This document shows, one piece after another, positions 8,540-23,601 of a DNA stretch of 64,000 bases. The number at the start of each line of letters is the position of its first letter. Positions within the stretch are counted from its first letter, which is position 1. Location of the stretch: contig JAGMCI010000001.1 in NCBI GenBank assembly GCA_023129325.1, forward strand, positions 23,722 to 87,721, given 5' to 3'. A program made the translations under genes and the position numbers. Source of the DNA: a candidate division WOR-3 bacterium. GTDB lineage: Bacteria; Hydrothermota; UBA3073; JACQXS01; JAGMCI01. The notes under the pieces are model-generated. The model was not told the DNA's origin. It worked only from the letters and a program-made list of their open reading frames with translations, and made no database searches.

Positions 8540-8568
8540 AAACGGAAGGCTCTATTTTAGGAGGAAAA

Positions 8569-9969
8569 ATGAAAGAAGAAGAACTATTACAGATAGTTAT
8601 TCCTGAAGCACAGGTAAAAGTCAACTTTCCAAACACAAGTGGTATGACTGGTAAGGTAAGTTATGCTCTGAAAAAGGATACCCAGGGTCTCTGGCATTTA
8701 GCTGGCGAACTTGTTATGGATAACGATATTATTAAAGATAAGGTTTTGATTGAGTCTGAAGAGATTATGGACATTTTGCAAGATGCTCTATCAGTAGACC
8801 AATATTGTCAGGATGAGGACTTTCAAAAGCACCAGAGAGAGCTTGCTTTAAGACTTGCCCTCCAAATGTGGGGTAAAAAGGGAATACACCTTAAAAGTAA
8901 TTCAGTAGAGATAGAGCTTGAGCCATACATCTTGCAACAGCACACAGTGAGTAAAAACGAAGCCAATCTGCTTAAGCTTCTTTTTGAAGAAGTTCAGAAA
9001 AAGATAAGAAAAGTGAAGATACCCGATTACCTTAAAGTTAAGGCACATGAGAACTTTATTCCTGACAAACTTCTTCTGGAAAGTCTATTACAACGAATCT
9101 ATGAGAATGTACCAGCAATTGCTATCCTGGGACCCACTGGAAGTGGTAAATCAGCTATGGCTTGGTATGTAGGAGCAAGACTTAATCAGGAAGGTTTTGG
9201 AATTTATACGATTGATGGACATGCAAGACTTGAAGGAGATAGACTTTTTGAGAGAGATGATTTTGACCAGAAAGGGACTTTTATTCTGGAGGGCATTCTG
9301 CTTAGGTTAGCTCGGGAGACAAAGAGGCTTAGAATTAGATTATTAGTGATTTTAGAAGAATACAATGCCTTTTCTGATGAGACGAGAAGAGAGTTTTACA
9401 GACTGTTTTCAGATGAGAACCGAGTTTATCAGATTCAGAGTTCTAAATCCAGAGAAAGCCAAGAGATTGATTTCTCCCATGTCCAGTTTCTCTTGACAGG
9501 TAATCCTTTATCCAGTGATAGATACCTAACAGATGACTTACGCAGACTCTCTAATGCTGAAACTCGGAGGTTGGTGATTCTTTATCAGGATTATGCTCAA
9601 GAGCCAGCAACAGTCCAGAAGATTTTGCAAGCGATAGTTAGTAAAAAGGAAGCTTATGAGAAGCTCAAAGCTAAAGTGTCTGACTTGGACAAACGAATAA
9701 ACTGGAAACTTGGAGTAGACATATTCAAGGCTCTAAATTCAAGAAAAGATGGAGACTCACTTGGCTTTGATGTTGGATATTCTGCTGTAGCTGATATGCT
9801 CTGGACAGCCACTTTGAGGGCTCATCAGTCAAAAAGGTTTGAGATTGCTATAACAGAACATATTTTGAATGGGATACCAGATGTAAACATAAGGCAGTTA
9901 GCAGTGGATAGGATAAGACAAGCAGCGAATATTGCTATATCTGGCGAGGTTATTACCAGAGATACATAG
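8569..9969 (+). CDS. AAA+ ATPase of the AAA_5 type (MoxR/NorQ/CbbQ-like)
   Basis: Walker A AILGPTGSGKSAMA, Walker B LLVILEEYNAF, sensor region FLLTGNP. GGAGG RBS. Confidence 0.65.
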   Translation: MKEEELLQIVIPEAQVKVNFPNTSGMTGKVSYALKKDTQGLWHLAGELVMDNDIIKDKVLIESEEIMDILQDALSVDQYCQDEDFQKHQRELALRLALQMWGKKGIHLKSNSVEIELEPYILQQHTVSKNEANLLKLLFEEVQKKIRKVKIPDYLKVKAHENFIPDKLLLESLLQRIYENVPAIAILGPTGSGKSAMAWYVGARLNQEGFGIYTIDGHARLEGDRLFERDDFDQKGTFILEGILLRLARETKRLRIRLLVILEEYNAFSDETRREFYRLFSDENRVYQIQSSKSRESQEIDFSHVQFLLTGNPLSSDRYLTDDLRRLSNAETRRLVILYQDYAQEPATVQKILQAIVSKKEAYEKLKAKVSDLDKRINWKLGVDIFKALNSRKDGDSLGFDVGYSAVADMLWTATLRAHQSKRFEIAITEHILNGIPDVNIRQLAVDRIRQAANIAISGEVITRDT

Positions 9970-9978
9970 GAGGCCGAA

Positions 9979-10428
9979 ATGAAAGAGATTTTTGGAGACT
10001 TATTTGAACAGAAAGATGCAGATGTCATCTGTATCACTACTAACGGCTTCGTTAAAAGAGATGGCTCTTGTGTGGTGGGTAGAGGTTGTGCAAAAGAAGC
10101 TGACAGAAGATGGAATTGTAGCAAGACCTTAGGTGAGTTAATCAGACATTGGGAAAATATTCCTGTGATATTTTATAGAACAAACGATTACACGGTAGTC
10201 AGTTTTCCCGTAAAACATAATTGGTGGGAAAAGGCAGACCTTGATTTAATTAGAAAATCGGCAAATCTTTTGGTAGGGTTAGCAGATTTCTACGACTGGA
10301 AGAAAGTAGTGCTTCCCAGACCAGGATGTGGAAACGGGAGGCTGGATTGGAAGGATGTTAAGCCTGTTTTGGAGCCTATTTTGGATGATAGATTTTATGT
10401 CATAACTAACAAGAAAGGATGCGAGTGA
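9979..10428 (+). CDS. Macro-domain-like protein (ADP-ribose binding/processing fold)
   Basis: GDLFE..DADVICITTNGFVKRDGSCVVGRGCA and LPRPGCGNGRLDWKDV match the macro-domain glycine-rich loops by eye. Confidence 0.5.
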   Translation: MKEIFGDLFEQKDADVICITTNGFVKRDGSCVVGRGCAKEADRRWNCSKTLGELIRHWENIPVIFYRTNDYTVVSFPVKHNWWEKADLDLIRKSANLLVGLADFYDWKKVVLPRPGCGNGRLDWKDVKPVLEPILDDRFYVITNKKGCE

Positions 10429-10567
10429 TGTTCGTGGTTTGGTTTGCAAAGGGGACAGAGGACTATCGTTGAAAGAGACGATAGGCAAAGACGGTGATTG
10501 TCTTAATCGGGGGGAGCCCAGCAGACCAAGCTGTGAAGATGAATGAAGAGAATAGGAGGTAAGAGAA

Positions 10568-10975
10568 ATGGAAGAATTAGAGAAGTTGCAGGAAGAGGCA
10601 AAAAGACTGATAGAGCAGTCAAATGATGAGGAGTTTCGGGAGATGGTATTCTTTTGGCACGGCGATGAATTCCTTGCAGAAAATTTGCGCAGAAGCACAG
10701 ATAGTTGCGAGGATATTGACTGTGTCAAAGGGTTTGTTGAGAAATTCGGGGCAAGGATTGGCAAGAGAAAAGAAGAGAAGAAGCCAGTGTTTAGAAAACT
10801 GAAAAGGGATACGGTAGTCAGTTATGCTGATGGCAAGGAATTAGTAGGAGTATATTTTGCAGATACAGACGGAAGTCAGGCACTAATTGAATGTAGTTCT
10901 GAAAAAGCTGATAGAATTATTAAAGTCTGGAATGAAGAAGAAGGCACAAAAGGAGGTGAAAGTGGGAAAATTTAA
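10568..10975 (+). CDS. Hypothetical acidic protein
   Basis: 135-aa ORF with an AGGAGG RBS, lying inside a tightly packed operon. Confidence 0.45.
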   Translation: MEELEKLQEEAKRLIEQSNDEEFREMVFFWHGDEFLAENLRRSTDSCEDIDCVKGFVEKFGARIGKRKEEKKPVFRKLKRDTVVSYADGKELVGVYFADTDGSQALIECSSEKADRIIKVWNEEEGTKGGESGKI

Positions 10976-11195
10976 AGGAGCAAAATGTCCGGTTTGTGGA
11001 CAGGTAATTTATGACCCATTGTTATCTGAGTTAAAAGCGGGTAGCAGTAGAATTGATGACTTTGCACATTTCATAACGAATGAGGCATTAGATGGACTTA
11101 ACATGGAGATTGATGTTGAATTATTTGATGAAATTAAAGCAAGGGTATCATTGGCTTTGATGCCAGAGGAAGATGTAGATGCTTGTGGAGAATAA
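10962..11195 (+). CDS. Small hypothetical protein with a CxxC motif
   Basis: GTG at 10962, 5 nt after GGAGG (10952-10956). Contains KCPVCGQ. Confidence 0.4.
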   Translation: MGKFKGAKCPVCGQVIYDPLLSELKAGSSRIDDFAHFITNEALDGLNMEIDVELFDEIKARVSLALMPEEDVDACGE

Positions 11196-11205
11196 GGAGG
11201 AGATA

Positions 11206-11559
11206 ATGGTTGAGTATATGGCTTGTATGCGAAGCAATAGCTTTAAGGTTAAGAATATTGAGGCGTTTAAGAAAGCTATTGAGGATGAGAAGATTTTGAT
11301 GAATGACATTGAAGTGATTGAAGAAGGCGGGGAGGTAATTCTGGCGGGATATTCTTTTATTCCGTTCAATTGTGGGCCTGATGAAGGTTATGAGGATTTT
11401 GAGTTCGCGAAGTTTATCCAGGAGCACTTGGTACGAGGAGAGAAAGCTGTGATAATGGAGATAGGGCATGAAAAGTTGTGTTATCTCAATGCTTTCCAGT
11501 ATGTTATCACACCGGAGAAGATTGAAGAAAAGTCTATGACTGTTCCAGAGGGAGCATAG
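11206..11559 (+). CDS. Hypothetical protein
   Basis: ATG at 11206 preceded by aaggaggagata; 117 aa. Confidence 0.45.
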   Translation: MVEYMACMRSNSFKVKNIEAFKKAIEDEKILMNDIEVIEEGGEVILAGYSFIPFNCGPDEGYEDFEFAKFIQEHLVRGEKAVIMEIGHEKLCYLNAFQYVITPEKIEEKSMTVPEGA

Positions 11560-11569
11560 GAGGTGTTAG

Positions 11570-11764
11570 ATGAAGAGCGTGAGAATATTAGTACCTTTAA
11601 CTGAAAAGGCCAAGGTTTGGGTTCACAATAATGTGAGCTACGAGCCCTGGCAGAGATTTGGAGACGATGGAGTTGCTATCGAGTGGCGATTTCTTGATGA
11701 CATTTTGGAGGAACTGTATAACGATGGCTTTAAGGCGGGAGAGGATTATTTTGTGCACGGATAG
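11570..11764 (+). CDS. Small hypothetical protein
   Basis: 64-aa ORF with ggaggtgttag upstream of the ATG. Confidence 0.45.
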   Translation: MKSVRILVPLTEKAKVWVHNNVSYEPWQRFGDDGVAIEWRFLDDILEELYNDGFKAGEDYFVHG

Positions 11765-11774
11765 GAGGCGTAAG

Positions 11775-11951
11775 ATGGGCAAAGAATGTGACCATGAGTG
11801 GAAGGATGTTAAGGACTGGAAGGATAAACTCAAGATTAAGTACGGTGAGATTATAGAAATCCCTCAAAAGTGTATGAAATGCGGATTAGAAGGATATGAG
11901 GTATGGGTTTATTCTTGTATAGTAGATAAAGAGGACAACGAGGTTCATTAA
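11775..11951 (+). CDS. Small Cys/His protein (possible zinc ribbon)
   Basis: ATG at 11775 after ggaggcgtaag. Sequence MGKECDHEW...CMKCG. Confidence 0.4.
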   Translation: MGKECDHEWKDVKDWKDKLKIKYGEIIEIPQKCMKCGLEGYEVWVYSCIVDKEDNEVH

Positions 11952-11965
11952 GGCGAGGAGGGAAT

Positions 11966-13618
11966 ATGGGAATTAAGATAATTCTTGCAGATTATGTGAG
12001 ATATTACTTAAGGCGGGTGATTGGGATTGATATTCCCTTGCGGGATTCTCCTGCACCCGCTTATGTTTATAAGCCCAAGATAGAACTTCACCTGCCAGTG
12101 AGTAAATCCAGTTTGGGAGAGTTCTTGGGAAAAGATTTTGTAAAGAGTGCAAGTAGAGAACTTTTGTTCTCAATCTTGATAGGTCTTGCTTATCACGAAG
12201 TAGCTCATGCCAAGAGTGGTGAGATTGAAGTAAAGCCTCATAGTTTGAATAATCTTATTTGCGATTCCAATGACTTCAACTTTGTTCCTCAGACCTGGCC
12301 TGGTTCTATTCCCTTTACACTTGCTCTAACGAATATCATCTATCGTCAAGGTAAGGATTTGAAAGGCCGTTCTTTGAAGACCAGAAAAGATAAGCTGGAA
12401 GCTCTTCTTGATTTGGCAGTGACATTTATGAGAAAGTTAAGGGTGAAATATGATGGAAAAGATGTGAGAAGCTTACCCCAAGACCACGAGCTTTTTGACA
12501 TTTTTGAGCAACTCAAGCCTATTATGATAGAGGCAAGGAAGGCTGAAGTGAAGAAGAGACCAGGATTGGTTTTGAGACTATACAAGGCTTTAGAGAAGTT
12601 TTGGGTTAAAGAGAAGAAGCAGACATCTCCCACTAAAGCTCCAAGCAAATCTGGAACTGGAAGCCTAAACAAAGCATTAGAATCAGTCTCTGTGCCTATG
12701 AAAGGAAAGCTCACAAAGAAAGATGCGAAAGAGATGCAAGAACAGGCAGAGAGGAATCCTGAGTTCGAGAAGATTAGGAATCAGCTTAAGGAGATTAAAG
12801 ATAAGGTAAGAGAAGAGAAAGAACAAGAGATTGAGAAACAAGTGGAAGGTTGGCTTGGAGAACTCCATGAGATTGAGGAAGTAAAGGAAGAATCAGCCGA
12901 GACTCCAAGAATAGATGAAAGTCTTGTTTCAGTTTTAAGGCGAGAGATTAGACCTTTACTCTTTAAAAGGACTTTAGCACGAAGGGCACCATCAGTCAGC
13001 GGCACAAAGTTCGCACCTGAAAGGTTTTATGAAATCAAGACAAATCCAGAGGAACCAAGAATAACGAAAGACACAAAGAGAATAGGTAGACTTATTGATG
13101 AAACTGAAGTTGTTTTCTGCTTTGATAGGTCTGGCTCTATGATGGGGAATAAGGAAAAAGTATGCCAGCAAATTGCGGCTACACTCTACAAGGCACTTTC
13201 AACTATACCAAGGGTTAGAGTTCAGATTATAGGTTTTGACGACGGCCCCTGTCTAATTAAGGGAACGAGACCGCTCTCAATGGATACAGTATTAAGAAGA
13301 ATCCCAATCGGTCTTTGTGCAAGAGGAGGGACTAATCTACCGTTGGCTTTGAAAGAAGCACTGAATCGAGCAAAAAAATCCTTGACAAACAAGCAATTAG
13401 TGATTATACTAACAGATGGAGATTTAAGAGGAGAGATGAATGCAACTGACCTTGCACTTTGGGCTAAAAGGCATAGTATTGATTTAGTCTGTATAGGTGT
13501 GGAAGAAAACAATGCATCTGAGCTCAAAAGGAAGTTTGGAGCTTCCAATGTTCTTTATGTGGAGGATATTCGTAATCTTGCGAAGGAGATGAGGAGGGTT
13601 GTGCAAAGGAGGATATAA
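11966..13618 (+). CDS. vWA-domain protein with an N-terminal HExxH metallopeptidase-like motif
   Basis: MIDAS motif VVFCFDRSGSM and VIILTDGD in the C-terminal third. YHEVAHA (HExxH) near residue 77. A Lys/Glu-rich linker joins the two. Confidence 0.7.
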   Translation: MGIKIILADYVRYYLRRVIGIDIPLRDSPAPAYVYKPKIELHLPVSKSSLGEFLGKDFVKSASRELLFSILIGLAYHEVAHAKSGEIEVKPHSLNNLICDSNDFNFVPQTWPGSIPFTLALTNIIYRQGKDLKGRSLKTRKDKLEALLDLAVTFMRKLRVKYDGKDVRSLPQDHELFDIFEQLKPIMIEARKAEVKKRPGLVLRLYKALEKFWVKEKKQTSPTKAPSKSGTGSLNKALESVSVPMKGKLTKKDAKEMQEQAERNPEFEKIRNQLKEIKDKVREEKEQEIEKQVEGWLGELHEIEEVKEESAETPRIDESLVSVLRREIRPLLFKRTLARRAPSVSGTKFAPERFYEIKTNPEEPRITKDTKRIGRLIDETEVVFCFDRSGSMMGNKEKVCQQIAATLYKALSTIPRVRVQIIGFDDGPCLIKGTRPLSMDTVLRRIPIGLCARGGTNLPLALKEALNRAKKSLTNKQLVIILTDGDLRGEMNATDLALWAKRHSIDLVCIGVEENNASELKRKFGASNVLYVEDIRNLAKEMRRVVQRRI

Positions 13619-13623
13619 AAAAG

Positions 13624-13661
13624 AGCGGGGATAAAACTTGTCTCCGCTTTTTAATTTTTTT
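13624..13661 (+). terminator. Rho-independent terminator ending the HerA-to-vWA operon
   Basis: Stem 13624-13631 / 13641-13648 (agcgggga / tctccgct, one G-U pair), followed by tttttaattttttt. Confidence 0.55.
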
Positions 13662-13791
13662 GTTGCAATTATTTAAACTGTTATATATTATAAAGATGAA
13701 TCTTGTCTGAGGACAGTTGGTATATAAAGTAGAAGAAAAAAGATTACTTAATAATTTTGAAGTAATATGTTATAATTCAAGAGGAGGATAA

Positions 13792-14652
13792 TTGGAAGAA
13801 AGAACATTAGTGTTACTTAAACCAGATGCTATTAAAAGAAACAAGGTGGGGTGTATTATTACTAAATTTGAAGATGCTAACCTACAGATAGAAAAGATAA
13901 GAACGTTTAAACCCACGCCGGAAATAGTAAGCGAACATTATAAAGCAACAGAGAAATGGTTGATAAATGTGGGAAACAAGACTATTACGAATTATAAGGA
14001 GGTTTTTAAAGAGAAATGGGAAATTGAGTTAAATAGAGATTTTCATACAAGCAATCCGCTACAAATTAGTAAGATGATTAAAAAGTGGTTGGTTAATTAT
14101 TTATGTGGAGAGCACATTATAGGTATTGTATTTAAAGGGAATCATGCGGTTGAGGTAGGGAAAAAACTTGTAGGGGATACCATGCCCTTGAGAGCTCTTC
14201 CCGGCACTATAAGAGGAGATTTTGCAATAGACTCTGCAGATCTGGCCAATAAGGAGAAGAGGGCGGTTCGTAATCTCGTTCATGTTTCTGAGGATCTTGG
14301 AGAAGCACAACGAGAGATTTCGTTGTGGTTTAAGGACGAAGAAAAACAGAAGGGGGAAGAAATGGATATAGAGAATAGAGATTTAGAAGAAGTATTTAAA
14401 GAACTTAAAGGAACCGACAAGAGAAAAGCTGCTGAGGTAGCCTATGTTCTTGCTATTTTGAAAAAGGAGCAAGGAGATATAGAAAAAGCAAGGAGTTACG
14501 GGGAAGAAAGTATTAACCTATTTAAACAGGTTAATGTGCAATCGTTCGAAGATGCTGCAGCAAGGTATGTTGTATTAAAGGGGGTCGCTTTACCCAGCTA
14601 TATTCATGAGAATGTTGTACGAGACAGATTGTCAAAATTGAGAATACTCTGA
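13792..14652 (+). CDS. Nucleoside diphosphate kinase-like domain with an insertion and a C-terminal helical (TPR-like) extension
   Basis: EERTLVLLKPDAIKR, GTIRGDFA and NLVHVSED (the NxxH[GV]S[DE] active-site His context). TTG start 5 nt after GGAGG. 286 aa, well above the length I recall for stand-alone NDKs. Confidence 0.65.
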   Translation: MEERTLVLLKPDAIKRNKVGCIITKFEDANLQIEKIRTFKPTPEIVSEHYKATEKWLINVGNKTITNYKEVFKEKWEIELNRDFHTSNPLQISKMIKKWLVNYLCGEHIIGIVFKGNHAVEVGKKLVGDTMPLRALPGTIRGDFAIDSADLANKEKRAVRNLVHVSEDLGEAQREISLWFKDEEKQKGEEMDIENRDLEEVFKELKGTDKRKAAEVAYVLAILKKEQGDIEKARSYGEESINLFKQVNVQSFEDAAARYVVLKGVALPSYIHENVVRDRLSKLRIL

Positions 14653-15323
14653 TGATTTCTTTCCACGATTCACTTTGTATGTATAAAAAAATTGAAGGAT
14701 TAGAAAAACTGAAAAAATTAGGTTTACCATGTCCACCCCACGTAATAGTATCAATTGAAAAAGATAATCTGCTTGATGTAAAGACTTATATTTTGAGCCG
14801 AGTGAAACAAATTGGTATCCCTCACTCAAAAGGAGATAGAATCGGGGTCACTATCAGAGTCTCCCTTCCTGGAGCTCTGGATAAAACTGCTGTACACGGA
14901 GGATTACATGTAACTGAGGAAGAAGAAATTGTTAAAAGAATTCTGCAAAAATATGAGGAGTATAAACAAAAAGCTAAAATCATTATTATGCATACTATAG
15001 ACGCGAGATGTTCTGGAGTTATAGAGTTGCAAGATCAACAGGTAATTATTGAAACAATTCCCGGAGATAATCCTCCTTTATTAGAAGGAAGGACAAATAA
15101 TATTGAAAGGTGGCAGTGGTTGTTTTTCCTAAACAGAGACCCAAGGGTACCAATAAGTTCTTACATGGATACTAATAATCAAGAGAGGCGGCTTCTATCA
15201 TTTTCGGATATTAACATTTTTAAAAAATACTTAAGGTACTTCTCTGATAGAAAATGGGTATATTTAGAATGGTCAATTGCTAAAAACGGGAATCTCTATT
15301 TCTATGAATACCTTGAGCATTGA
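14652..15323 (+). CDS. Hypothetical protein resembling the ATP-grasp nucleotide-binding domain of PEP synthase / PPDK (PPDK_N-like)
   Basis: The start overlaps the NDK stop by 1 nt. GVTIRVSLPGALDKTAVHGGLHV and CSGVIEL..VIIETIPGDNPPLLEGR resemble VAVRSS..ED..SFAGQ and SGV..IEA.WGLGE.VVSG. This is a by-eye similarity only. Confidence 0.4.
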   Translation: MISFHDSLCMYKKIEGLEKLKKLGLPCPPHVIVSIEKDNLLDVKTYILSRVKQIGIPHSKGDRIGVTIRVSLPGALDKTAVHGGLHVTEEEEIVKRILQKYEEYKQKAKIIIMHTIDARCSGVIELQDQQVIIETIPGDNPPLLEGRTNNIERWQWLFFLNRDPRVPISSYMDTNNQERRLLSFSDINIFKKYLRYFSDRKWVYLEWSIAKNGNLYFYEYLEH

Positions 15324-16407
15324 AAAAACTATGTCTTTTCCTTACTCTTTAAGAGAGTTAACATTAGAGCTCACACGATACTGCTATCTCAAATGTAAAC
15401 ATTGTTCTTCCTTCATTCCGGAATCTTCATGTAGATCGGAAGATTTGACTTTATCTAAATTTGCGAGTTTAGTGTACTCAGCCAAAGAACTAGGGTGTGA
15501 AGAGCTCTATCTATCAGGAGGCGAGCCACTCTCTTTTGGAGCAATAATTCCTTTTTTAGAAAAAATAGAGCCGTTAAATATTAAGGTTTTTGTTTACTCT
15601 TCAGGAGTGATAGGTTATTCAAATGGAACTATTTTTGGAATAAGCTCTGATTTTGCGAATAAATTGAAAATGCGTGGCGTTGAGAAAATTATTTTTCACT
15701 TAGCAAGTGCCACTTCATCTATCCATGATTTCTTTACACAACAGAGAGGTAGTTTTCGAGTCACTATGAATTCTATGAAGACTTGTGTTAGTGCTGAGAT
15801 TCCTGTAGAGCTAAATTTTGTTCCCACTTCCATCAATTGGTTTGAACTTCATAATCTTGTTAGACTGAGTTATGAATTAAGAGGACAACGATTGAATATA
15901 CTGAGATTTGTACCCCAAGGACGAGGAGCCCTAAATAAAGAGGAACTGCTCATGGGTACTACCGAATTGAATCAATTTAAACGAGAAATTGAATTACTTT
16001 CTCAGGACTCTACTCGAGTTCCGTTAAAGATAGGAGCTCCCTTTAATTGTCTTTTTCCAGAGAAATCTGTTCCTTGCAATGCCGGCAGGTCTCGGCTTCT
16101 TGTTAGATCTAATGGTGATACATTCCCCTGCGAGGCATTTAAACATTCTCCAGTAGATTCTCAAGCCAATCTCAAACATAACAATCTCCAAAATATTTGG
16201 GAAAATTCACCTTTAATAATAGCTCTTCGTCAATTTGATTCTTCAAAACTTGGATATCCTTGTAATTCCTGTCAACATCGGGAATTATGTGGAGGTGGCT
16301 GTCCGGGGCAGCGGGCTCTATCATGGGGTTCTATTTATGCAGGTTTCGATCCTATCTGCCCATTAATAAACAACATAAAGAAAAATTCATTTCCGTCTAA
16401 ATCTTGA
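15304..16407 (+). CDS. Radical SAM enzyme with a C-terminal SPASM-type auxiliary cluster domain
   Basis: CYLKCKHC (CxxxCxxC) and LSGGEPL. C-terminal CNAGRSRLLVRSNGDTFPCE ... CNSCQHRELCGGGCPG. The start is ambiguous (15277 TTG, 15304 ATG or 15331 ATG). Confidence 0.8.
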   Translation: MNTLSIEKTMSFPYSLRELTLELTRYCYLKCKHCSSFIPESSCRSEDLTLSKFASLVYSAKELGCEELYLSGGEPLSFGAIIPFLEKIEPLNIKVFVYSSGVIGYSNGTIFGISSDFANKLKMRGVEKIIFHLASATSSIHDFFTQQRGSFRVTMNSMKTCVSAEIPVELNFVPTSINWFELHNLVRLSYELRGQRLNILRFVPQGRGALNKEELLMGTTELNQFKREIELLSQDSTRVPLKIGAPFNCLFPEKSVPCNAGRSRLLVRSNGDTFPCEAFKHSPVDSQANLKHNNLQNIWENSPLIIALRQFDSSKLGYPCNSCQHRELCGGGCPGQRALSWGSIYAGFDPICPLINNIKKNSFPSKS

Positions 16408-16500
16408 GTTCTTATACAAAAAGAAGATTGAAAAATTTTAAACCAAAGTGGAATATGAACTTGTTTCTTTTCGTTTATTCTAAAAGAAAATGATTTCCTT

Positions 16501-17034
16501 ATGAAGAACATTGAAGTGGAAGTAAGAAGCTTTATTACAAAAGATCAATATGAGAAACTCATTAGCTTTTTCAAAGAAAATGCCAAATTTATTAATGAAG
16601 ATTATCAAGAAACTTATTACTTTGACACAAAAGAAGATTTACGCATTCAAAGGAATAATTTCTTCTCAAAAATTTGGTTGAAGAAGGGGGAAATCCATGA
16701 CAATTGGCGAGAAGAGATCGAAATAAAATTTAATAGAAATGATTTCGAGAAACTCGAAAATTTATTCATATCTCTGGGATTAAAAGTTCAAATAAAATGG
16801 TTTAGAAAAAGGCATACTTTTGAATGGCAGGATACAAAAGTTTGTTTAGATTATACAAAAGGATATGGCTATATAATTGAAGTAGAGAAACTGTGTTCCG
16901 AAAAAGAGAAAGAAAACATATTAAAAGTGATCCAACAGCAAATGCAAAACATTGGTATTTCATTAACTCCAAAAGAAGAATTTGATAAAAAATATCAATA
17001 TTATAAAAAAAATTGGAGGAAATTAGGGGGATAA
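16501..17034 (+). CDS. CYTH-domain protein (CyaB / thiamine triphosphatase-type triphosphate tunnel metalloenzyme)
   Basis: N-terminal IEVEVRSF (ExExK-like signature), with size and alternating charged beta-strand pattern typical of CYTH. Confidence 0.55.
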   Translation: MKNIEVEVRSFITKDQYEKLISFFKENAKFINEDYQETYYFDTKEDLRIQRNNFFSKIWLKKGEIHDNWREEIEIKFNRNDFEKLENLFISLGLKVQIKWFRKRHTFEWQDTKVCLDYTKGYGYIIEVEKLCSEKEKENILKVIQQQMQNIGISLTPKEEFDKKYQYYKKNWRKLGG

Positions 17035-17095
17035 AAAAATTACTTTAATTTAATCCAATCCAAAAGTGATGTATTTCATTTTTTTCCATTTTTGG

Positions 17096-18139
17096 TTATT
17101 TTACAAGTGCTTTAATTATTAGAATAAAAAGCCCGCCTGCAATAGCAATCATAATACCTTCTAATACTCTATATTTAATTTCAAGCAATGATATTTTTTT
17201 CTCTAGAGACTTAAGTGAAACACTAGGACCAGCTATAGTTTTGAGCATATCCATTGGAATATCCTCCTGCCCAACAAGAGGTCCCTCATAACCCCTGTAA
17301 ATTTCGCTTTTTATCTCTTCAAACATTATCATAAAAACAGGTTCTTTGTATTTCAAAATAATGTTTTTGGGACCGGCATTGTATAGGGAAAATAATAATT
17401 TACCATGAAATCCGGGATCAACATGAAATCCAGAAATATTTACTAATCCTCTATTTTTATATCCAAATCTAACTGAAATAAGTCCTATTAAGTCCCAAGG
17501 GATATAAATATATTCATAAGTAGTGAGAATAGCAAATTCACCTGGTGTCATTATAGCTATGTCATGTTTATTTGAGAATCTCTGTGGGCGAGGGTTTGTG
17601 CTTAAATAATAACTTTCACCAATCCTTAGGTTACAATTTGCGCTTTGGAATGTACCTGAAGTCAAAGTGAAACCATGAACAAATATTGGTAATATTCCGT
17701 GTTTTTTTTGTAGTTGTTCACGTTGTTTTCGATTCTTCAATTTCTTTATTTCTTCTACTACAGCATCTTTATGTTTCTCTTTAAGATCAATTAAATCGGG
17801 AAGTTCAGTAAACTTTTTAATTTCTTTTATAAGTTCCGAATTGTTTATCCACTCTCTGTGGTTCCTGTCTCGGAATGCACCAAAAAAACTCTTTAGTGTT
17901 TGCTCAACGAAATTCTCCAACCGGCCCTTTGGCCAATAATATTCAGGTAGCTCAAGCTGTTTTTTAAGCTTTTTAAATTCTGCATCTTGCTCATCAGATA
18001 AATCGATGAAATTTGAGCCCTTAAGTTTTTCTATAAGTTTAGATAGCTCCTCTCTTTTCTTGATATCCAGTGTTCCCCATACCAGATACTCTCCCAACAC
18101 AACTCGTATAAGGATATCTTTAGCAGATAAAAAACTCAT
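17096..18139 (-). CDS. dCTP deaminase / dUTPase-fold protein with a ~150-aa helical insertion and a C-terminal transmembrane helix
   Basis: ATG at 18139 follows GGAGG by 6 nt. MTPGEFAILTTYEYIYIPWDLIGLISVRFGYKNRGLVNISGFHVDPGFHGKLLFSLYNAG aligns by eye with E. coli Dcd LHPGELALAV...RIDPGWSGCIVLEFYNSG. C-terminal IMIAIAGGLFILIIKALV. Confidence 0.65.
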   Translation of the reverse strand: MSFLSAKDILIRVVLGEYLVWGTLDIKKREELSKLIEKLKGSNFIDLSDEQDAEFKKLKKQLELPEYYWPKGRLENFVEQTLKSFFGAFRDRNHREWINNSELIKEIKKFTELPDLIDLKEKHKDAVVEEIKKLKNRKQREQLQKKHGILPIFVHGFTLTSGTFQSANCNLRIGESYYLSTNPRPQRFSNKHDIAIMTPGEFAILTTYEYIYIPWDLIGLISVRFGYKNRGLVNISGFHVDPGFHGKLLFSLYNAGPKNIILKYKEPVFMIMFEEIKSEIYRGYEGPLVGQEDIPMDMLKTIAGPSVSLKSLEKKISLLEIKYRVLEGIMIAIAGGLFILIIKALVK

Positions 18140-18527
18140 GAGGTTCCTCCTTTTTCTGTCAATTAAATATTTTATAAAGAACAAATCCTTATAAAATATA
18201 GATTATCATATTGAATTGAAAAGTCAAGAACTTTCTGTATTAACCATATGATTTGACTTTAAGATTGGGATATAACATATGTTTTACCCCTCCAAAAAGT
18301 TCTAACTTCCTCTACGAGACGGAGCCAGACGGACAAAGACTCTGCAAAACAGGGGCTTTGTCCTTTATTTAAACCAAATTTTACTGGTTCTAACCTAACT
18401 TTTTCGGCTTCTGCCCTGGACAGACCGTTTTTGATACTCAAGAATGGGTTTTGCTTTGATAAAGAGTTTTTCTACCATGAGAATAGAGTCCGAACCTAAA
18501 GATGGAAAAATAGGGGGTATAGAGAGT

Positions 18528-20084
18528 TCATTTGTTGGATTGAACCTTAATTCTCAATATTTCTTCTATAATTAGAAGAGTAAATGCCCCCGCTACTATC
18601 CAATATAAAACAGTTGTCAGTTTTGCCCTTAATCCAAGCAAAGGCAAGAATCCAACAAGTACAATACCGTACCCTAACAGTACTCTTTTTATACTTTCCC
18701 TTTTACACCATCTCTTTAATAAATTGCACCAATCTGGATAATACCAAATGAACACGAGGAGCATGGCTAGCATTATGCCTCTGGCTACGAAAGTTGGATC
18801 TAATTGAACTATGTAGGCAAGTAATAATATGCATGCTAATTGTACTATGAGAGATAGGATTATCTTAAAGTTCTCGTTTAACACTTGTGTCTGAGGCATC
18901 CATTGTTTTTCATTCTTAAACGATAAACCAAGCATTAAAAGCGCCATCACAGATAAAGGCAGGGAGGAAAGAAGGAAGGATGCCAAAGATTGAATGTATT
19001 TTAATGATAGCCCCCATATACATAAGAGAGCACATATGTAGCCAAATCCTTTATACCCACCGCAAGGAAGAGAAATTATTTCTGTTTCTTCATAGTTTTT
19101 GTTTTCTAATGTCCACACACGTATAAATACGGGAAGCCTCCTTGTTTGCAAATACCAAAAATAGAAAAGATATATAAATGGTAGTAAGATGAACAAAGCT
19201 GTCATTGGCAATTTCTTTTGGACTATACCCCAAAGAATAGGGTAAAGAAATAAAAGGCATGATAGATAACCTACAATCATTAAAATTATACCAAAAAGAC
19301 CCTTAGAGTGGCTTTCACGAAGGGTTGAAACTACTGCACCAAAGATAGTATTTTCAGGAGTTCGTCGCTTAAGACGGCCAATTAGCCATAGAATGAGAAA
19401 TGCAATAAAGATTAAAGATGATACAGTGAGAATCCAAAATATAATACCATAAAGGACACATAAAGCAGCTATAACCAGTCCAGGTGCATACCACCAGGCC
19501 ATCATCTGGACTCGTTTAATCTTGGAATTTGGGATTTTTGTATCTCTTAAATACTTGTCAAAAGCGTTTTCGTGCTCAATAGTTCCAACAGTCTCCCAAA
19601 ATCGACTCCCTGGCCCAGTTTTTTGTTCAAGATTTGACTCCTTCCAGATAATCTTGTTGGTTATTAGAGAAAAAACAAGGACATATAGCAGTAATATAGT
19701 AACAAACACGCCAACAGGTGGCGAAGGGATATGTAAATGGAATATTTGGAGATGTGGTTCGAGAGATGAACCGGGTAGCAAGAATAAAGTTATCACGAAG
19801 GCCGAGAAGATAACCGCTATATTTATTCCGAGTTTATTGCGAAAATCTCCATACATCTCTTTACTAATTTCTTGATGTGCGTCAAAGCCTATGATGCATA
19901 TTATTATCCAAGAGATAATGGTCGAAATATCCTTAGAGGCAAATCCAATAGTACTGTCAACACCGAAGAGAATGCTAAGAATCTTACTTTTTGATATGAT
20001 TTTGATTAACAGAGGAGCATATTTGGTGATCAAATAGAAGGGTAGCAGAAGGATTACTAATAATGTCTTCCGTTTCTTCTTCAT
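18528..20084 (-). CDS. Polytopic integral membrane protein, unknown family
   Basis: 518-aa ORF made almost entirely of hydrophobic helices (at least 10 by eye). Confidence 0.6.
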   Translation of the reverse strand: MKKKRKTLLVILLLPFYLITKYAPLLIKIISKSKILSILFGVDSTIGFASKDISTIISWIIICIIGFDAHQEISKEMYGDFRNKLGINIAVIFSAFVITLFLLPGSSLEPHLQIFHLHIPSPPVGVFVTILLLYVLVFSLITNKIIWKESNLEQKTGPGSRFWETVGTIEHENAFDKYLRDTKIPNSKIKRVQMMAWWYAPGLVIAALCVLYGIIFWILTVSSLIFIAFLILWLIGRLKRRTPENTIFGAVVSTLRESHSKGLFGIILMIVGYLSCLLFLYPILWGIVQKKLPMTALFILLPFIYLFYFWYLQTRRLPVFIRVWTLENKNYEETEIISLPCGGYKGFGYICALLCIWGLSLKYIQSLASFLLSSLPLSVMALLMLGLSFKNEKQWMPQTQVLNENFKIILSLIVQLACILLLAYIVQLDPTFVARGIMLAMLLVFIWYYPDWCNLLKRWCKRESIKRVLLGYGIVLVGFLPLLGLRAKLTTVLYWIVAGAFTLLIIEEILRIKVQSNK

Positions 20085-20114
20085 TTATCAATTACATTGC
20101 TTTCATAAAACAGC

Positions 20115-21074
20115 TTATAATTGCTTCTTTCGAGAAGGATGTCTTAAGTGCGAAAGAGCATCTAAAAGTAAAAAAGTACGAAGTGAATTGGCTTCTGTGC
20201 CAAAATCTGTAATAAATCCATGAAGTATAGCATGGCGATTAAATCTACTTTTGTTCTCGAGCAATGTTTTATCAGACTGTTTTTCTCTACCAAAATCCTT
20301 ATAGCCGACTTCTTGAACAAAAGCAAGAAGACAGTCCACATATAAACTTCCAAGCTCGACTTCCTTGTCTTTCTGAAGTCCTTTTTCTATAGCTTTCTCT
20401 ATTGTTTTTAAAACTCCTCTTACCTTCTTCCCACATTGATTTAGAAATTCTCTTGCTATACCTTCTACTTGTGGAAGAAGTAAAGTTACAGCTCCACTGA
20501 AATATTCTTTTTTATGTAGCTCAAGAGATTCATCTATAAGGTTTATCCTACTTTTGAATAATGAATTAGATTCCCATTTTTTCACTAGTTCTATAAGATT
20601 GCTGTAGTTGTTATTTTTAAAATGCGTGACAAACAAATTATCTATTTCCTTTCCACTTTTGGCAAAAGCTATTTTATTAAGCAGCCGCATAGTAAGTGAA
20701 GGTGTTATTATCCATTTGTTTCTTTTCGCATTCCTAATAGTTACTACTCTTACTTCTTTTATATGCTTTATAAATCCTTGGAATGCTTCTCCCCAAGGTG
20801 GTAAGATAAAAGAACGCTGGATTTGCTGAACAGATTCAAAAAGCTGTTTAGAAATCAATGGTTGGTAAAGAGTTTTCAGATTCCGCATAAGTTCTTGATA
20901 AGGCGCCATGAGTTGTTGAGCTTTTATAAGGTTTCTGGCAAGGTCCTCTAAGATAACAGACTTAAAAGGAGAATAAATCCTCATATACTCATCTTGCATT
21001 TTCTTAATACCCTCTATGATTTTAAAATGATCAGACTTAATTCTCTTTAAGAATTTATCCATTTGTTTATCCAT
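20115..21074 (-). CDS. Hypothetical protein with a C-terminal HEPN-like Rx4HG motif
   Basis: ATG at 21074 is preferred over the TTG at 21137. The C-terminal NRHAILHG fits the R[NH]xxxHG motif of RiboL-PSP-type HEPN domains. Based on this single motif only. Confidence 0.4.
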   Translation of the reverse strand: MDKQMDKFLKRIKSDHFKIIEGIKKMQDEYMRIYSPFKSVILEDLARNLIKAQQLMAPYQELMRNLKTLYQPLISKQLFESVQQIQRSFILPPWGEAFQGFIKHIKEVRVVTIRNAKRNKWIITPSLTMRLLNKIAFAKSGKEIDNLFVTHFKNNNYSNLIELVKKWESNSLFKSRINLIDESLELHKKEYFSGAVTLLLPQVEGIAREFLNQCGKKVRGVLKTIEKAIEKGLQKDKEVELGSLYVDCLLAFVQEVGYKDFGREKQSDKTLLENKSRFNRHAILHGFITDFGTEANSLRTFLLLDALSHLRHPSRKKQL

Positions 21075-21227
21075 AACTTTTCCCTCTTTTTCTGAGAACC
21101 AACTTAATAATTTTACTACTCTTGAGCAATATGTCAACTTTAATCTGCTGTATCAAATTTTAGTATGCCAAAATAAAAATTGTCTCTACGATAGCTATTC
21201 CTTTTATTTAAACTAATTCAATAGGTT

Positions 21228-22916: not shown

Positions 22917-23601
22917 AGGTTCAAGGTTAATTTATCTTCACCGGATCATAGCATATTTAAAAAATGCTGCCAAGAGAGCAGCTATTTTTTGTGCTTAGTT
23001 AAAAGAAACTCAAAAATCTTCTCTATTTCAAGCTCTTCGGCCTTTGTAGGACGACAATATTTCCAGACAATCTTAAATTGATTCCTGTTTTTCTTTTTAG
23101 GAGACATAACACTTTTTACTTTAAGAGCAAGGGAATTTAAAAGAAGGAGGGGAAAATTAGCTAAAATAAGAACTCTTATTAGGATACAGCTCTTGACAAA
23201 ACTTTTTATTTGTGCTAGTCTGGATAGAAAACAAATACAAAAATAAGTCGCTAAAATAAAAAGGAGGCTGTCTCAACAATTAAATTGGCAGAGTAAGGAG
23301 ATATAAAATACAAGCATAAAACTACCAATTATGTAACAACACGCTAAAATCTATCTTCTCCGTCTCCATAGTTGAGGTCTTCGTTATAGTCTGTGCTGCA
23401 GATTTTGAACTTAAAACAAAAACACCCTTAAGAGGTGTTTTTTAGTCACATTCAGTCCACAGATTAGCTTAAAACTTGCCCAACCCAGCAAAAAATTAGT
23501 CTGGAAGTTTTGAACTTCCTTCGCTATCCTTAAGGGTTCTTTAAAAGACAAACACAGAAATAGAAGAATCTCAGTAACATCTATAGAAAGAATTAACTAT
23601 T

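What the first reader, a model, noticed from the sequence alone, without database searches (positions are those of the whole stretch)
13792..17034. Operon of four nucleotide/triphosphate-handling enzymes: NDK-like, ATP-grasp (PPDK_N-like), radical SAM-SPASM, CYTH
The four genes are co-oriented and the first two overlap by 1 nt.
- An NDK-like domain (KPDA, GTIRGDF, NLVHVSED) is expanded by an insertion and a helical tail.
- A small protein resembles the ATP-binding domain of PEP synthase/PPDK.
- A radical SAM enzyme (CYLKCKHC) carries a full SPASM auxiliary-cluster domain.
- A CYTH triphosphate-tunnel enzyme closes the set.
The cluster lies between a mobile-element operon and a serine-recombinase island. 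Radical SAM enzymes paired with nucleotide kinases recall prokaryotic viperin loci that make chain-terminating nucleotides, but this enzyme is SPASM-type, not viperin-like, and I saw no convincing precursor-peptide gene nearby. One hypothesis is synthesis or turnover of a modified (poly)phosphorylated nucleotide or signalling molecule. A peptide-maturation role cannot be excluded.
Basis: partly seen in the sequence, partly recalled or inferred. Interest (0 to 1): 0.65.

Follow-up and report, generated by a model that had tools for sequence, protein, structure and literature searches.

The report
Uncharacterised radical-SAM nucleotide-handling gene cassette
The four genes are real, but the unit conserved elsewhere is a rare, undescribed trio (small ATP-binding enzyme, radical-SAM enzyme, membrane-anchored dUTPase-like protein on the opposite strand) that probably makes or processes a modified nucleotide, here with two extra nucleotide enzymes on a bacterial mobile element.

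Summary
All four ORFs exist as described:
- a long archaeal-type NDK with a helical tail;
- a stand-alone ATP-grasp of the PEP-synthase/PPDK/rifampin-phosphotransferase type, shown by fold and by fused relatives but not by any Pfam or NCBIfam model;
- a radical-SAM enzyme with a full SPASM domain, no RRE domain, and no match to any named subfamily;
- a CYTH protein.

The four-family operon was not seen in about 40 related loci examined. What does recur, in more than 30 archaeal loci (Bathyarchaeota, Methanoperedens), is ATP-grasp + "DCD-long" + rSAM-SPASM. DCD-long is a dUTPase/dCTP-deaminase-fold protein with a helical insertion and a C-terminal membrane anchor, and it lacks the deaminase glutamate. 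In archaea this trio comes with a wHTH protein, a 70-aa protein and a 424-aa nuclease-like protein.

In the window, DCD-long lies just outside the finding (17096-18139, minus strand, convergent). NDK and CYTH are window-specific additions, and the nuclease, 70-aa and wHTH genes are absent. In variant cassettes other nucleotide-type proteins occupy or join the DCD-long slot (HD-like, thymidylate-synthase-like + DUF4062, dNK kinase).

Best reading (about 0.4): a pathway that makes a radical-SAM-modified (deoxy)nucleotide, probably conflict-related. No known defence model or paper matches it. No biochemical step has been shown.

The parts
13620..13652 (+). Intrinsic terminator closing the upstream VWA operon; left boundary of the unit
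   Evidence: 15-pair stem followed by a T run
13748..13776 (+). Promoter-like site (TTAATA-17-TGnTATAAT) ahead of g1. AGGAGG lies 5 nt before the TTG start.
   Evidence: 10 of 12 matches, with an extended -10 TG; sequence read. This is a consensus match only.
13792..14652 (+). g1: long archaeal-type nucleoside diphosphate kinase (residues 1-184) plus a helical, TPR-like tail of about 100 aa
   Evidence: Pfam NDK 102.9 bits. 146 bits to P. aerophilum NDK 1xqi over residues 3-184. TPR_12 is below cut-off. Relatives with the tail: P0195-P0199, 39-40% identity.
14652..15323 (+). g2: stand-alone ATP-grasp domain of the PEP-synthase/PPDK/rifampin-phosphotransferase (dikinase) type, with no swivel-His domain. 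An alternative start is ATG 14679.
   Evidence: No profile hit. AF2 pLDDT 87. Foldseek top hit is the RPH ATP-binding domain, E 2e-8. Relatives are fused to PF00391, and one hit is a PPDK_N protein. 72 homologue clusters, all unnamed.
15331..16407 (+). g3: radical SAM enzyme (CYLKCKHC) with a full SPASM domain (two auxiliary-cluster motifs) and no N-terminal RRE domain
   Evidence: the best named family is PqqE at 108 bits against a cut-off of 381, so it is no equivalog. PDB PqqE E 1.4e-17. AF2 pLDDT 92. Foldseek order: SuiB, PqqE, SkfB, then BlsE, anSME, viperins, MoaA.
16501..17034 (+). g4: CYTH (triphosphate tunnel metalloenzyme) protein of the archaeal type; 93-nt gap after g3 with no terminator
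   Evidence: Pfam CYTH 43 bits. TIGR00318 cyaB 47.1 bits, below its cut-off of 57.95. PDB hits: Pyrococcus 1yem and Saci_0718 TTM. No terminator-like site in the g3-g4 gap.
17096..18139 (-). DCD-long: dCTP-deaminase/dUTPase-fold protein with a helical insertion of about 130 aa after the first strand, a C-terminal coiled coil and a C-terminal hydrophobic anchor. It lacks the deaminase Glu. It is the conserved partner of g2 and the rSAM elsewhere.
   Evidence: Pfam DCD 38.3 bits. TIGR02274 63.7 bits, below its cut-off of 92.8. 41-47% identical to the gene lying between g2 and the rSAM in archaeal cassettes. Family alignment. Best PDB matches are 155-aa archaeal proteins that also lack the Glu. 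Start ATG 18139 with an AGGAGG SD.
18195..18226 (-). Promoter-like site for DCD-long (TTGACT / TATATT region)
   Evidence: site at 18222-18195 on the minus strand; sequence read. Consensus match only.

Best explanation
This is a five-gene, nucleotide-centred module carried by a bacterial mobile element. Its core was probably acquired from archaea. The core is g2 (ATP-grasp), g3 (rSAM-SPASM) and DCD-long (a membrane-anchored dUTPase-like protein).

Proposed mechanism; every step is inferred and none is shown:
1. DCD-long binds or hydrolyses a (deoxy)pyrimidine triphosphate. This either supplies the monophosphate or removes the canonical competitor.
2. The rSAM-SPASM enzyme carries out radical chemistry on that nucleotide.
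3. g2 uses ATP to re-phosphorylate or activate the product.
4. The NDK converts the diphosphate to the triphosphate.
5. CYTH trims or cyclises a triphosphate.

The product would be a modified (deoxy)nucleotide used in conflict. It could poison an invader's polymerase, as viperin products do. Alternatively it could mark the element's own DNA through the nucleotide pool.
For: 1. g2, DCD-long and the rSAM lie in one operon, in that order, in more than 20 loci. The family is very rare: 72 clusters among 5.8 billion proteins and 30 representatives among 1.84 billion.
2. The DCD-long slot is taken or joined by other nucleotide-type proteins.
   - A 433-aa protein has H..H/HD motifs that align to a dGTPase-like HD protein (weak, hhalign E 0.016).
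   - A protein with a thymidylate-synthase-like N-terminus plus DUF4062 occurs in another variant. The TS hits are weak (E about 0.4) but consistent.
   - dNK kinases appear in L001, L006 and L045.
3. The window adds an apparently intact NDK and a CYTH protein to the same transcription unit.
4. g2 belongs to the dikinase ATP-grasp lineage.
5. The rSAM has no RRE, and no convincing precursor gene is nearby. A SPASM-type enzyme acting on a nucleoside exists: BlsE ranks 8th by fold.
6. Viperins, which are rSAM nucleotide modifiers, are linked or fused to nucleotide kinases and to a 'triphosphatase or cyclase' domain (bioRxiv 10.1101/2023.09.13.557418).
7. The setting is accessory and mobile.
   - One archaeal copy lies between HsdR/DarTG and Shedu.
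   - A fused g2 relative lies beside NurA/HerA/DruA.
   - In the window, mad8/HerA-like, Cas4-like and DarG-like genes lie upstream and a serine recombinase downstream.
Against: - No substrate or activity has been shown for any protein.
- By sequence and fold the rSAM is closest to peptide-modifying SPASM enzymes (SuiB, PqqE, SkfB).
- g2 lacks the swivel-His domain that its lineage normally needs, so its chemistry is unclear.
- DCD-long is membrane-anchored, which is unusual for a pool enzyme. It could instead be a sensor or an effector.
- Most archaeal copies sit among housekeeping genes, not in defence islands.
- No PADLOC model hits any of the five proteins above noise; the pVip models hit only the rSAM core, at about 31 bits.
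- NDK and CYTH are unique to this locus, so their link to the core rests only on operon structure.
- The HD-like and TS-like assignments are weak.
Confidence: 0.4

Rival explanations
1. Nucleotide-signal or abortive-infection system. The rSAM, g2, NDK and CYTH make or destroy a small nucleotide signal, with CYTH acting as a cyclase or triphosphatase. The trimeric, tail-anchored DCD-long would be the nucleotide-sensing membrane effector or a pool-depleting effector, not a biosynthetic enzyme.
For: - DCD-long has a conserved C-terminal coiled coil and hydrophobic anchor, and it lacks the deaminase Glu.
- A bacterial DCD protein with the same C-terminal anchor but no insertion stands alone beside a prophage integrase (L056).
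- The helical insertion is variable, as expected of a sensor.
- CYTH families include class IV cyclases (TIGR00318, 47 bits).
- Some copies have defence-type neighbours.
Against: - CYTH scores below the cyaB cut-off, and its nearest solved relatives include a triphosphatase-type TTM.
- CYTH is absent from every other cassette.
- No known effector or sensor domain was detected, and PADLOC gives no hit.
- The slot is replaced by soluble HD-like or TS-like proteins, which fits an enzymatic role better.
Confidence: 0.17
2. Peptide or protein maturation. The rSAM-SPASM enzyme and the ATP-grasp modify a ribosomal peptide or a partner protein. The nucleotide enzymes would be neighbours, or would supply ATP or SAM-related metabolism.
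For: - The closest sequence and fold relatives of the rSAM are PqqE, SuiB and SkfB.
- ATP-grasp plus rSAM is a common RiPP pairing (established knowledge).
- Archaeal cassettes carry a 70-aa ORF with a conserved 50-residue N-terminus and a hypervariable C-terminal tail.
Against: - No RRE domain and no PqqD-like gene were found.
- The only intergenic ORFs in the window are 24 and 29 aa with TTG starts.
- The 70-aa gene is absent from the window by HMM search. In archaea it is co-transcribed with the nuclease-like gene, not with the rSAM. Its tail has no conserved Cys or aromatic motif.
- g2 is of the dikinase type, not the RiPP-ligase type of ATP-grasp.
- Nucleotide enzymes recur in the same operon.
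Confidence: 0.12
3. No single system. The window's operon is a chance collection of nucleotide-pool genes on a mobile element (NDK, CYTH and a dUTPase-like gene, as on phages and plasmids). It sits beside an unrelated g2-rSAM pair of unknown, possibly cofactor or repair, function.
For: - NDK and CYTH are not linked to g2 or the rSAM anywhere else.
- g1 relatives sit with Ham1, PRK, NUDIX, DCD and HD genes.
- g4 follows a 93-nt gap with a weak ribosome-binding site.
- Archaeal cassettes lie among housekeeping genes and carry a nuclease-like gene, which would fit a repair role.
Against: - g1, g2 and g3 are packed with an overlap or a 26-nt gap (depending on the g2 start) and an 8-nt gap, behind one promoter and terminator pair.
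- DCD-long is the specific orthologue of the cassette partner (41-47% identity), not a generic dUTPase.
- Five nucleotide- or triphosphate-handling proteins in 4.4 kb is unlikely by chance.
Confidence: 0.15

Closest known systems
Prokaryotic viperins (pVips) with linked nucleotide kinases
   Same: A radical-SAM enzyme sits in an operon with nucleotide kinases. Viperins are also found fused to a 'triphosphatase or cyclase' domain. The proposed logic is the same: make a modified NTP that poisons polymerases.
   Different: The rSAM here is SPASM-type with two auxiliary-cluster motifs. The PADLOC pVip models give only about 31 bits over the rSAM core, and viperins rank below SuiB, PqqE, BlsE and anSME by fold. 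The kinase is an NDK, not an NMP kinase. The ATP-grasp and the membrane dUTPase-like partner have no viperin counterpart.
PqqE / SuiB / SkfB (SPASM or twitch peptide-modifying radical SAM enzymes)
   Same: These are the best sequence and fold matches. The CxxxCxxC and SPASM cysteines are all present.
   Different: The score is 108 bits against the PqqE equivalog cut-off of 381. There is no RRE domain, no PqqD and no precursor gene, and the gene context is nucleotide enzymes.
BlsE (blasticidin S) and OxsB/OxsA (oxetanocin): radical SAM enzymes acting on nucleosides or nucleotides
   Same: BlsE is a SPASM-type rSAM acting on a cytosine nucleoside and ranks 8th by fold. OxsB works with an HD phosphohydrolase on deoxyadenosine phosphates (own knowledge). 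That pairing parallels the rSAM + HD-like variant cassette.
   Different: There is no sequence-level orthology. OxsB is B12-dependent. No antibiotic gene cluster surrounds this locus.
Rifampin phosphotransferase / PEP synthase / PPDK (PPDK_N ATP-grasp + swivel His + substrate domain)
   Same: The g2 fold best matches the RPH ATP-binding domain. g2's relatives carry the PF00391 swivel domain.
   Different: g2 is only the ATP-grasp module (214-223 aa). The Pfam PPDK_N model does not detect it, and no swivel-His or substrate domain is in the window.
Phage pre-replicative DNA-modification pathways (T4 hm-dC; Z-genome PurZ/DatZ/MazZ)
   Same: The gene repertoire is of the same kind: a dNTP hydrolase (dUTPase-like or HD), a TS-like protein, dN/NDP kinases and a modifying enzyme. 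Archaeal cassettes add a nuclease-like gene (own knowledge of these pathways).
   Different: No g2 or rSAM relatives were found in IMG/VR. The modifying enzyme is an rSAM. The cassettes are chromosomal in archaea. No modified base is known.
Pyrobaculum aerophilum-type long NDK (PDB 1xqi)
   Same: g1 residues 3-184 align over the full length, including the insertion (146 bits).
   Different: g1 has an extra helical tail of about 100 aa, shared only with a handful of 300-316-aa proteins.

Membership tests
Nucleoside diphosphate kinase (PF00334) | NDK fold with the catalytic His (NxxH motif) and the KPDA and GTIRGD nucleotide-binding motifs | tested here: met
   Pfam 102.9 bits against a cut-off of 27. 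Full-length alignment to 1xqi. NLVHVSED, KPDA and GTIRGDF were read. NCBIfam equivalog cut-offs were not reached (100 against 155).
PPDK_N-type ATP-grasp (PEP synthase / PPDK / RPH dikinases) | Match to the PF01326 sequence model | tested here: not met
   No Pfam hit for g2 or for any of its 35 homologues, even at E 10.
PPDK_N-type ATP-grasp (PEP synthase / PPDK / RPH dikinases) | ATP-grasp fold closest to the dikinase ATP-binding domain | tested here: met
   The top five Foldseek hits are rifampin phosphotransferase (E 2e-8 to 2.5e-7). The g2 family profile also reaches a PPDK_N protein (P0332).
PPDK_N-type ATP-grasp (PEP synthase / PPDK / RPH dikinases) | Swivelling phospho-His domain (PF00391) in the same protein or system | tested here: not met
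   It is absent from g2 and from the window's neighbours. It is present only in the more distant fused relatives P0318, P0319 and P0321.
Radical SAM / SPASM | CxxxCxxC cluster motif plus the seven-Cys SPASM domain | tested here: met
   PF04055 38.4 bits, PF13186 28.2 bits and TIGR04085 45.8 bits, all above cut-off. The cysteines were read.
PqqE, MftC, AhbD, NirJ, sactipeptide and other named SPASM subfamilies | Score above the NCBIfam equivalog cut-off | tested here: not met
   The best is PqqE at 108 bits against 381. All 48 hits are far below their cut-offs.
RiPP maturase system | RRE/PqqD-like domain and an adjacent precursor peptide gene | tested here: not met
   The rSAM starts about 17 residues before the cluster motif and aligns to SuiB without SuiB's RRE. 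The only intergenic ORFs are 24 and 29 aa with TTG starts. The archaeal 70-aa gene is absent from the window.
Prokaryotic viperin (pVip) | Viperin-type rSAM without SPASM, detected by the pVip models | tested here: not met
   PADLOC pVip models give 30-31 bits over the rSAM core only. A SPASM domain is present. Viperins rank 19th and below by fold.
CYTH / triphosphate tunnel metalloenzyme | CYTH domain with the N-terminal ExExK-type motif | tested here: met
   PF01928 43 bits against a cut-off of 23.2. The motif is EVEVR, a K-to-R variant.
Class IV adenylate cyclase (CyaB, TIGR00318) | Score above the equivalog cut-off | tested here: not met
   47.1 bits against 57.95. The nearest solved structures are uncharacterised Pyrococcus CYTH proteins and a TTM from Sulfolobus.
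dCTP deaminase (TIGR02274) | Equivalog score, and the catalytic Glu in the G-x-(I/L)-T-L-E motif | tested here: not met
   63.7 bits against 92.8. The position is Ser, Ala or Thr in all 14 family members. That the Glu is essential for deamination is established knowledge.
dCTP-deaminase/dUTPase-like fold (PF22769) | DCD domain match | tested here: met
   38.3 bits against a cut-off of 27. PDB dCTP deaminase and dUTPase hits.
Known anti-phage defence systems (PADLOC-DB 2.0) | A match of any component to a system model | tested here: not met
   g1, g2, g4 and DCD-long have no hits. The rSAM has only weak pVip hits.

The most novel reading that the evidence does not exclude
The g2 + rSAM-SPASM + nucleotide-hydrolase cassette would be a previously unrecognised route to a radical-SAM-modified deoxynucleotide, shared between archaea and a bacterial mobile element.

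In archaea it is paired with a divergently transcribed nuclease-like gene and a wHTH controller. That arrangement would make it a restriction-modification-like or chain-terminator immunity system that works through the dNTP pool rather than on DNA.

The window's copy keeps only the synthesis half and adds NDK and CYTH. It could therefore be an 'orphan modification' or stand-alone antiviral-nucleotide module on the mobile element.
Probability: 0.25. Interest if true: 0.85.

Novelty: new variant of a known kind. Interest (0 to 1): 0.62.

Why it matters
Radical-SAM enzymes that modify nucleotides (viperins, nucleoside-antibiotic enzymes) yield antiviral molecules and useful chemistry. All characterised antiviral examples are viperin-type.

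If this reading is right, it would show three things:
- a SPASM-type enzyme working on nucleotides in a conflict setting;
- a new minimal family of dikinase-type ATP-grasp proteins, about 30 representatives among 1.84 billion proteins;
- a membrane-anchored dUTPase-fold partner.

It would also be a clear case of an archaeal cassette rebuilt with bacterial promoters and ribosome-binding sites on a bacterial element from a cold seep. The product could be a new nucleotide analogue, or a new DNA base in Methanoperedens or Bathyarchaeia.

Tried and rejected
1. Archaeal (Borg or Methanoperedens) origin of the window. This was suggested by the g2 relatives. It was rejected because the window encodes DnaN, a sigma-54 activator, TraD/TraG-like proteins and AGGAGG ribosome-binding sites.
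2. A hidden copy of the archaeal 424-aa nuclease-like or 70-aa gene in the window. Neither tblastn nor HMM search found one.
3. A precursor peptide in the gaps. Only two small intergenic ORFs exist, of 24 and 29 aa with TTG starts, and neither is convincing.
4. A known defence system. PADLOC found none.
5. Viral carriage. Scans of IMG/VR found no g2 or rSAM relatives. They found one bacterial prophage-adjacent DCD-plus-anchor protein.
6. DCD-long as a dCTP deaminase. This was rejected because the catalytic Glu is missing throughout the family.
7. Sequence-level tests of g2 against Pfam and the PDB. No hits.
8. The HhH / FeS-loop reading of the 424-aa protein. It could not be confirmed. There is only a weak NucS_C hit (E 0.009), and the PDB profile search found nothing. 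The CX5CX2CX5C motif rests on inspection alone.
9. The HD assignment of the 433-aa variant protein. Pfam and the PDB are silent, and only a weak hhalign match supports it.
10. Defence-island enrichment around the archaeal cassettes. This was not found; the flanks are mostly housekeeping genes.
11. Eight literature searches on gene combinations. None found a description of this cassette.
12. The rSAMs paired with g2 are not one clean clade. There are three sub-lineages, and the window's rSAM pairs with that of L006 at 45% identity.

Full report
**Observation.** Pfam and NCBIfam confirm three of them.
- g1 is an NDK: 102.9 bits in two stretches split by an insertion. A C-terminal helical region scores below threshold for TPR_12.
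- g3 is a radical-SAM enzyme with a SPASM domain (PF04055, PF13186 and TIGR04085, all above cut-off).
- g4 is a CYTH protein (43 bits).
- g2 has no hit in Pfam, NCBIfam or PADLOC.

The unit is delimited on its left by a strong intrinsic terminator (13620-13652). A promoter-like site and an AGGAGG Shine-Dalgarno sequence then precede the TTG start of g1. g1 and g2 overlap by 1 nt (TGATG) if g2 uses its first ATG. Homologues and the gene caller start 27 nt later at MYKK. g3 starts 8 nt after the g2 stop. g4 follows a 93-nt gap with no terminator. An independent Logan contig of 64.7 kb from a cold-seep metagenome covers 11000-23000 without a difference, so the arrangement is not an assembly join at this scale.

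**The unknown gene g2.** It has 72 homologue clusters, all about 210 aa and all unnamed. The few with taxonomy are archaeal (Ca. Methanoperedens). An AlphaFold model built on 35 of them is confident (pLDDT 87). Its best PDB matches are the ATP-binding domain of rifampin phosphotransferase (E 2e-8), followed by D-Ala-D-Ala ligases and other ATP-grasp enzymes.

A profile search of 1.84 billion representatives found only 30 relatives. The more distant ones of 321-347 aa carry a C-terminal PEP-utilizers swivel domain (PF00391), and one hit is a bona fide PPDK_N protein. g2 is the ATP-binding half of a PEP-synthase/PPDK/rifampin-phosphotransferase-type enzyme, but it lacks the phospho-His carrier domain. 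No such domain is encoded nearby.

**What is conserved elsewhere.** I looked up the contigs encoding g2 relatives and scanned GTDB genomes and JGI metagenomes. This gave about 40 loci. tblastn with the window's proteins and with the cassette proteins shows one recurring arrangement:
- on one strand, a 424-aa gene and a 70-aa gene;
- divergently from them, a 125-aa gene, then g2, then a 300-350-aa DCD-domain protein, then an rSAM-SPASM gene.

Named hosts are Bathyarchaeota, Methanoperedens and an uncultured archaeon. NDK and CYTH were found in none of these loci. Full-length relatives of g1 sit instead beside Ham1, PRK, NUDIX, DCD or HD genes.

The window does contain the third member of that unit. 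The minus-strand ORF 17096-18184, convergent with g4, is 41-47% identical to the cassette's DCD protein. Its real start is ATG 18139, with an AGGAGG SD and its own promoter-like site. The 424-aa and 70-aa genes are absent from the whole 64 kb, both by tblastn and by HMM search. The 125-aa gene gave no tblastn hit either.

**DCD-long.** The alignment of 14 members shows the following.
- The first strand of the dCTP-deaminase fold is present (M-x-I-L-S...).
- A variable helical insertion of 90-150 residues follows.
- The rest of the fold has an invariant GFHVDPG motif.
- A conserved coiled-coil-like segment and a terminal hydrophobic helix close the protein.

The Glu that performs deamination in dCTP deaminases (established knowledge) is Ser, Ala or Thr throughout the family. 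The best PDB matches are 155-aa archaeal proteins that also lack it. The protein scores below the dCTP-deaminase equivalog cut-off. I therefore read it as a membrane-anchored dUTPase-like NTP-binding or pyrophosphatase protein, not a deaminase.

**The radical-SAM enzyme.** No NCBIfam equivalog is approached: PqqE scores 108 bits against a cut-off of 381. PqqE is also the best PDB sequence match. The AlphaFold model (pLDDT 92) is closest to SuiB, PqqE and SkfB. Next come BlsE, a SPASM-type enzyme that acts on a cytosine nucleoside, then anSME, and further down viperins and MoaA.

The protein starts about 17 residues before its CxxxCxxC motif, so it has no RRE domain. The only intergenic ORFs are 24 and 29 aa with TTG starts. 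Its nearest relative (45% identity) is in L006. There it is flanked by a 424-aa-type gene, a DUF4062 protein and a dNK kinase. The rSAMs paired with g2 fall into three sub-lineages.

**Variants that point to nucleotides.**
- In L007, L046 and L047 the DCD-long slot holds a 433-505-aa protein. Its invariant RDHIxHxFRV and LTHDLGY motifs align with the H and HD motifs of a dGTPase-like HD protein. This is weak: hhalign E 0.016, and Pfam and the PDB are silent.
- In L006 the slot holds a protein whose N-terminus gives weak but consistent hits to thymidylate synthases (E about 0.4), without the catalytic Cys. It is fused to DUF4062.
- dNK kinases appear in L001/L010, L006 and L045.
- The window adds an NDK whose kinase domain is a normal long archaeal type: 146 bits to P. 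aerophilum 1xqi, with the catalytic His present. It also adds a CYTH protein nearest to Pyrococcus CYTH proteins and a Sulfolobus TTM.

Taken together, the slot next to g2 and the rSAM is filled by proteins that bind or hydrolyse (deoxy)nucleotides, and kinases of the deoxynucleotide ladder come and go. This is the main argument that the substrate is a nucleotide.

**Context.** The window is a bacterial mobile-element-like region. It encodes DnaN, a sigma-54 activator, TraD/TraG- and HerA-like ATPases and a large serine recombinase. Upstream lie mad8/HerA-like, Cas4-like, MoxR-VWA and DarG-like macro genes.

The core genes' relatives with taxonomy are archaeal, so inter-domain transfer followed by refitting with bacterial expression signals is likely. 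This is an inference.

Around the archaeal cassettes the flanks are mostly housekeeping genes: Cdc6, RadA, His biosynthesis, ribosomal and SRP genes. One copy lies between HsdR/DarTG and a Shedu gene. A fused g2 relative lies beside NurA/HerA/DruA. The cassette is rare and patchy: 6 of about 186,000 GTDB species by the pattern scan. It is absent from IMG/VR for g2 and for the rSAM.

**Mechanism.** None of this is shown; all of it is inferred from families and synteny. The best-supported model is a nucleotide-pool pathway.
1. A dUTPase-like (or HD-like) hydrolase supplies or clears a (deoxy)pyrimidine nucleotide.
2. The rSAM-SPASM enzyme modifies it.
3. g2 uses ATP to re-phosphorylate or activate it.
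4. The NDK completes the triphosphate.
5. CYTH acts on a triphosphate.

The parallel with viperins is functional, not familial. Viperins are genetically linked or fused to nucleotide kinases and, in some eukaryotes, to a 'triphosphatase or cyclase' domain (bioRxiv 10.1101/2023.09.13.557418).

The archaeal layout resembles a restriction-modification-like or self-protection arrangement. It has a divergent operon with a NucS-like PD-(D/E)xK protein (Pfam E 0.009) that carries four invariant C-terminal Cys. It also has a putative wHTH protein, read by eye. On that view the window has kept only the synthesis half. I give the nucleotide-pathway reading about 0.4.

The rivals are:
- a nucleotide-signal or abortive-infection system with DCD-long as membrane effector or sensor (0.17);
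- unlinked nucleotide-pool genes beside an unrelated pair (0.15);
- peptide maturation (0.12).

**Comparison and novelty.** The locus is not a pVip, not a PqqE/MftC/AhbD-type system, not a recognisable RiPP cluster, not a dCTP-deaminase defence gene and not any PADLOC system; the membership rows give the tests. Eight literature searches on the gene combinations found no description. It is best filed as an undescribed variant of the 'radical-SAM enzyme plus nucleotide kinases' theme. It is built from a new ATP-grasp family, a SPASM-type rSAM and a membrane-anchored dUTPase-fold protein.

**Verdict.** The unit should be redrawn as 13792-18139 with a three-gene conserved core. The function is unknown but probably nucleotide-centred. 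The locus is moderately to highly interesting because it is rare, conserved across domains and testable.

Noticed in passing
window 7043-13618 (+): The upstream operon encodes a HerA-like ATPase that hits the PADLOC 'mad8' model of the MADS system (E 1.5e-18). It also encodes an AAA_5 (MoxR-like) ATPase, a stand-alone DarG-like macro domain with no DarT nearby, several small acidic proteins and a 550-aa VWA protein. A Cas4-like PD-(D/E)XK nuclease lies at 4643-5413 (-). It may be a defence or anti-defence module of its own.
   Followed up: partly
window 18528-21137 (-): Upstream of DCD-long on the minus strand lie a 518-aa polytopic membrane protein with no family hit and a 340-aa protein that weakly hits phrog_28904. 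Whether they belong with DCD-long is unknown; neither has a counterpart in the archaeal cassettes.
   Followed up: partly
window 30241-31338 (+), 56600-58009 (+), 60452-61945 (+): Bacterial hallmarks sit on the same contig as genes whose relatives are archaeal: a complete DnaN beta clamp, an NtrC-type sigma-54 activator and a TraD/TraG-like coupling protein. This suggests inter-domain transfer of the cassette onto a bacterial conjugative element in a cold seep.
   Followed up: partly
window 44764-49032 (+) and 51483-53777 (+): A 1422-aa ORF has no Pfam hit. Separately, a PLP-dependent (tyrosine-decarboxylase-like) decarboxylase is fused to a response-regulator receiver domain.
   Followed up: no
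L002 7296-7520 (-) and equivalents in about 22 loci: The 70-aa protein of the archaeal cassettes has a highly conserved 50-residue N-terminal part and a hypervariable C-terminal tail of 15-30 residues rich in Lys, Ser and Thr. It is co-transcribed with the 424-aa nuclease-like gene.
   Followed up: partly
L002 6024-7295 (-); alignment A2: The 424-aa cassette protein is 45-78% identical across phyla. It has an invariant D...E-x-K nuclease-like motif (weak NucS_C hit), a GVGPRIxxQ helix-hairpin-like motif and four invariant C-terminal Cys (CX5CX2CX5C). These resemble the EndoIII/MutY iron-sulfur loop. That resemblance is from memory and was not confirmed by any search.
   Followed up: partly
L002 10701-11066 (-), L003 9529-9912 (-), L011, L030: A conserved ORF of 121-127 aa with membrane-protein-like weak Pfam hits lies antisense, overlapping the 3' end of the rSAM gene in several archaeal cassettes. 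A short DCD-family gene (177-181 aa, also without the deaminase Glu) follows in Bathyarchaeota copies.
   Followed up: no
L052 6191-8984 (+): A g2-like ATP-grasp is fused to a PEP-utilizers swivel domain (327 aa). It overlaps an upstream 437-aa unknown gene and lies beside NurA, HerA, DruA and a 1377-aa unknown protein. This may be a separate, undescribed defence-island module.
   Followed up: partly
L056 1-636 (+): A high-GC bacterial prophage-type contig (integrase, capsid and portal-like ORFs) begins with a 211-aa DCD-fold protein. It has the same GFHVDPG motif, C-terminal coiled coil and hydrophobic anchor as DCD-long, but no helical insertion and no rSAM or g2 partner.
   Followed up: no
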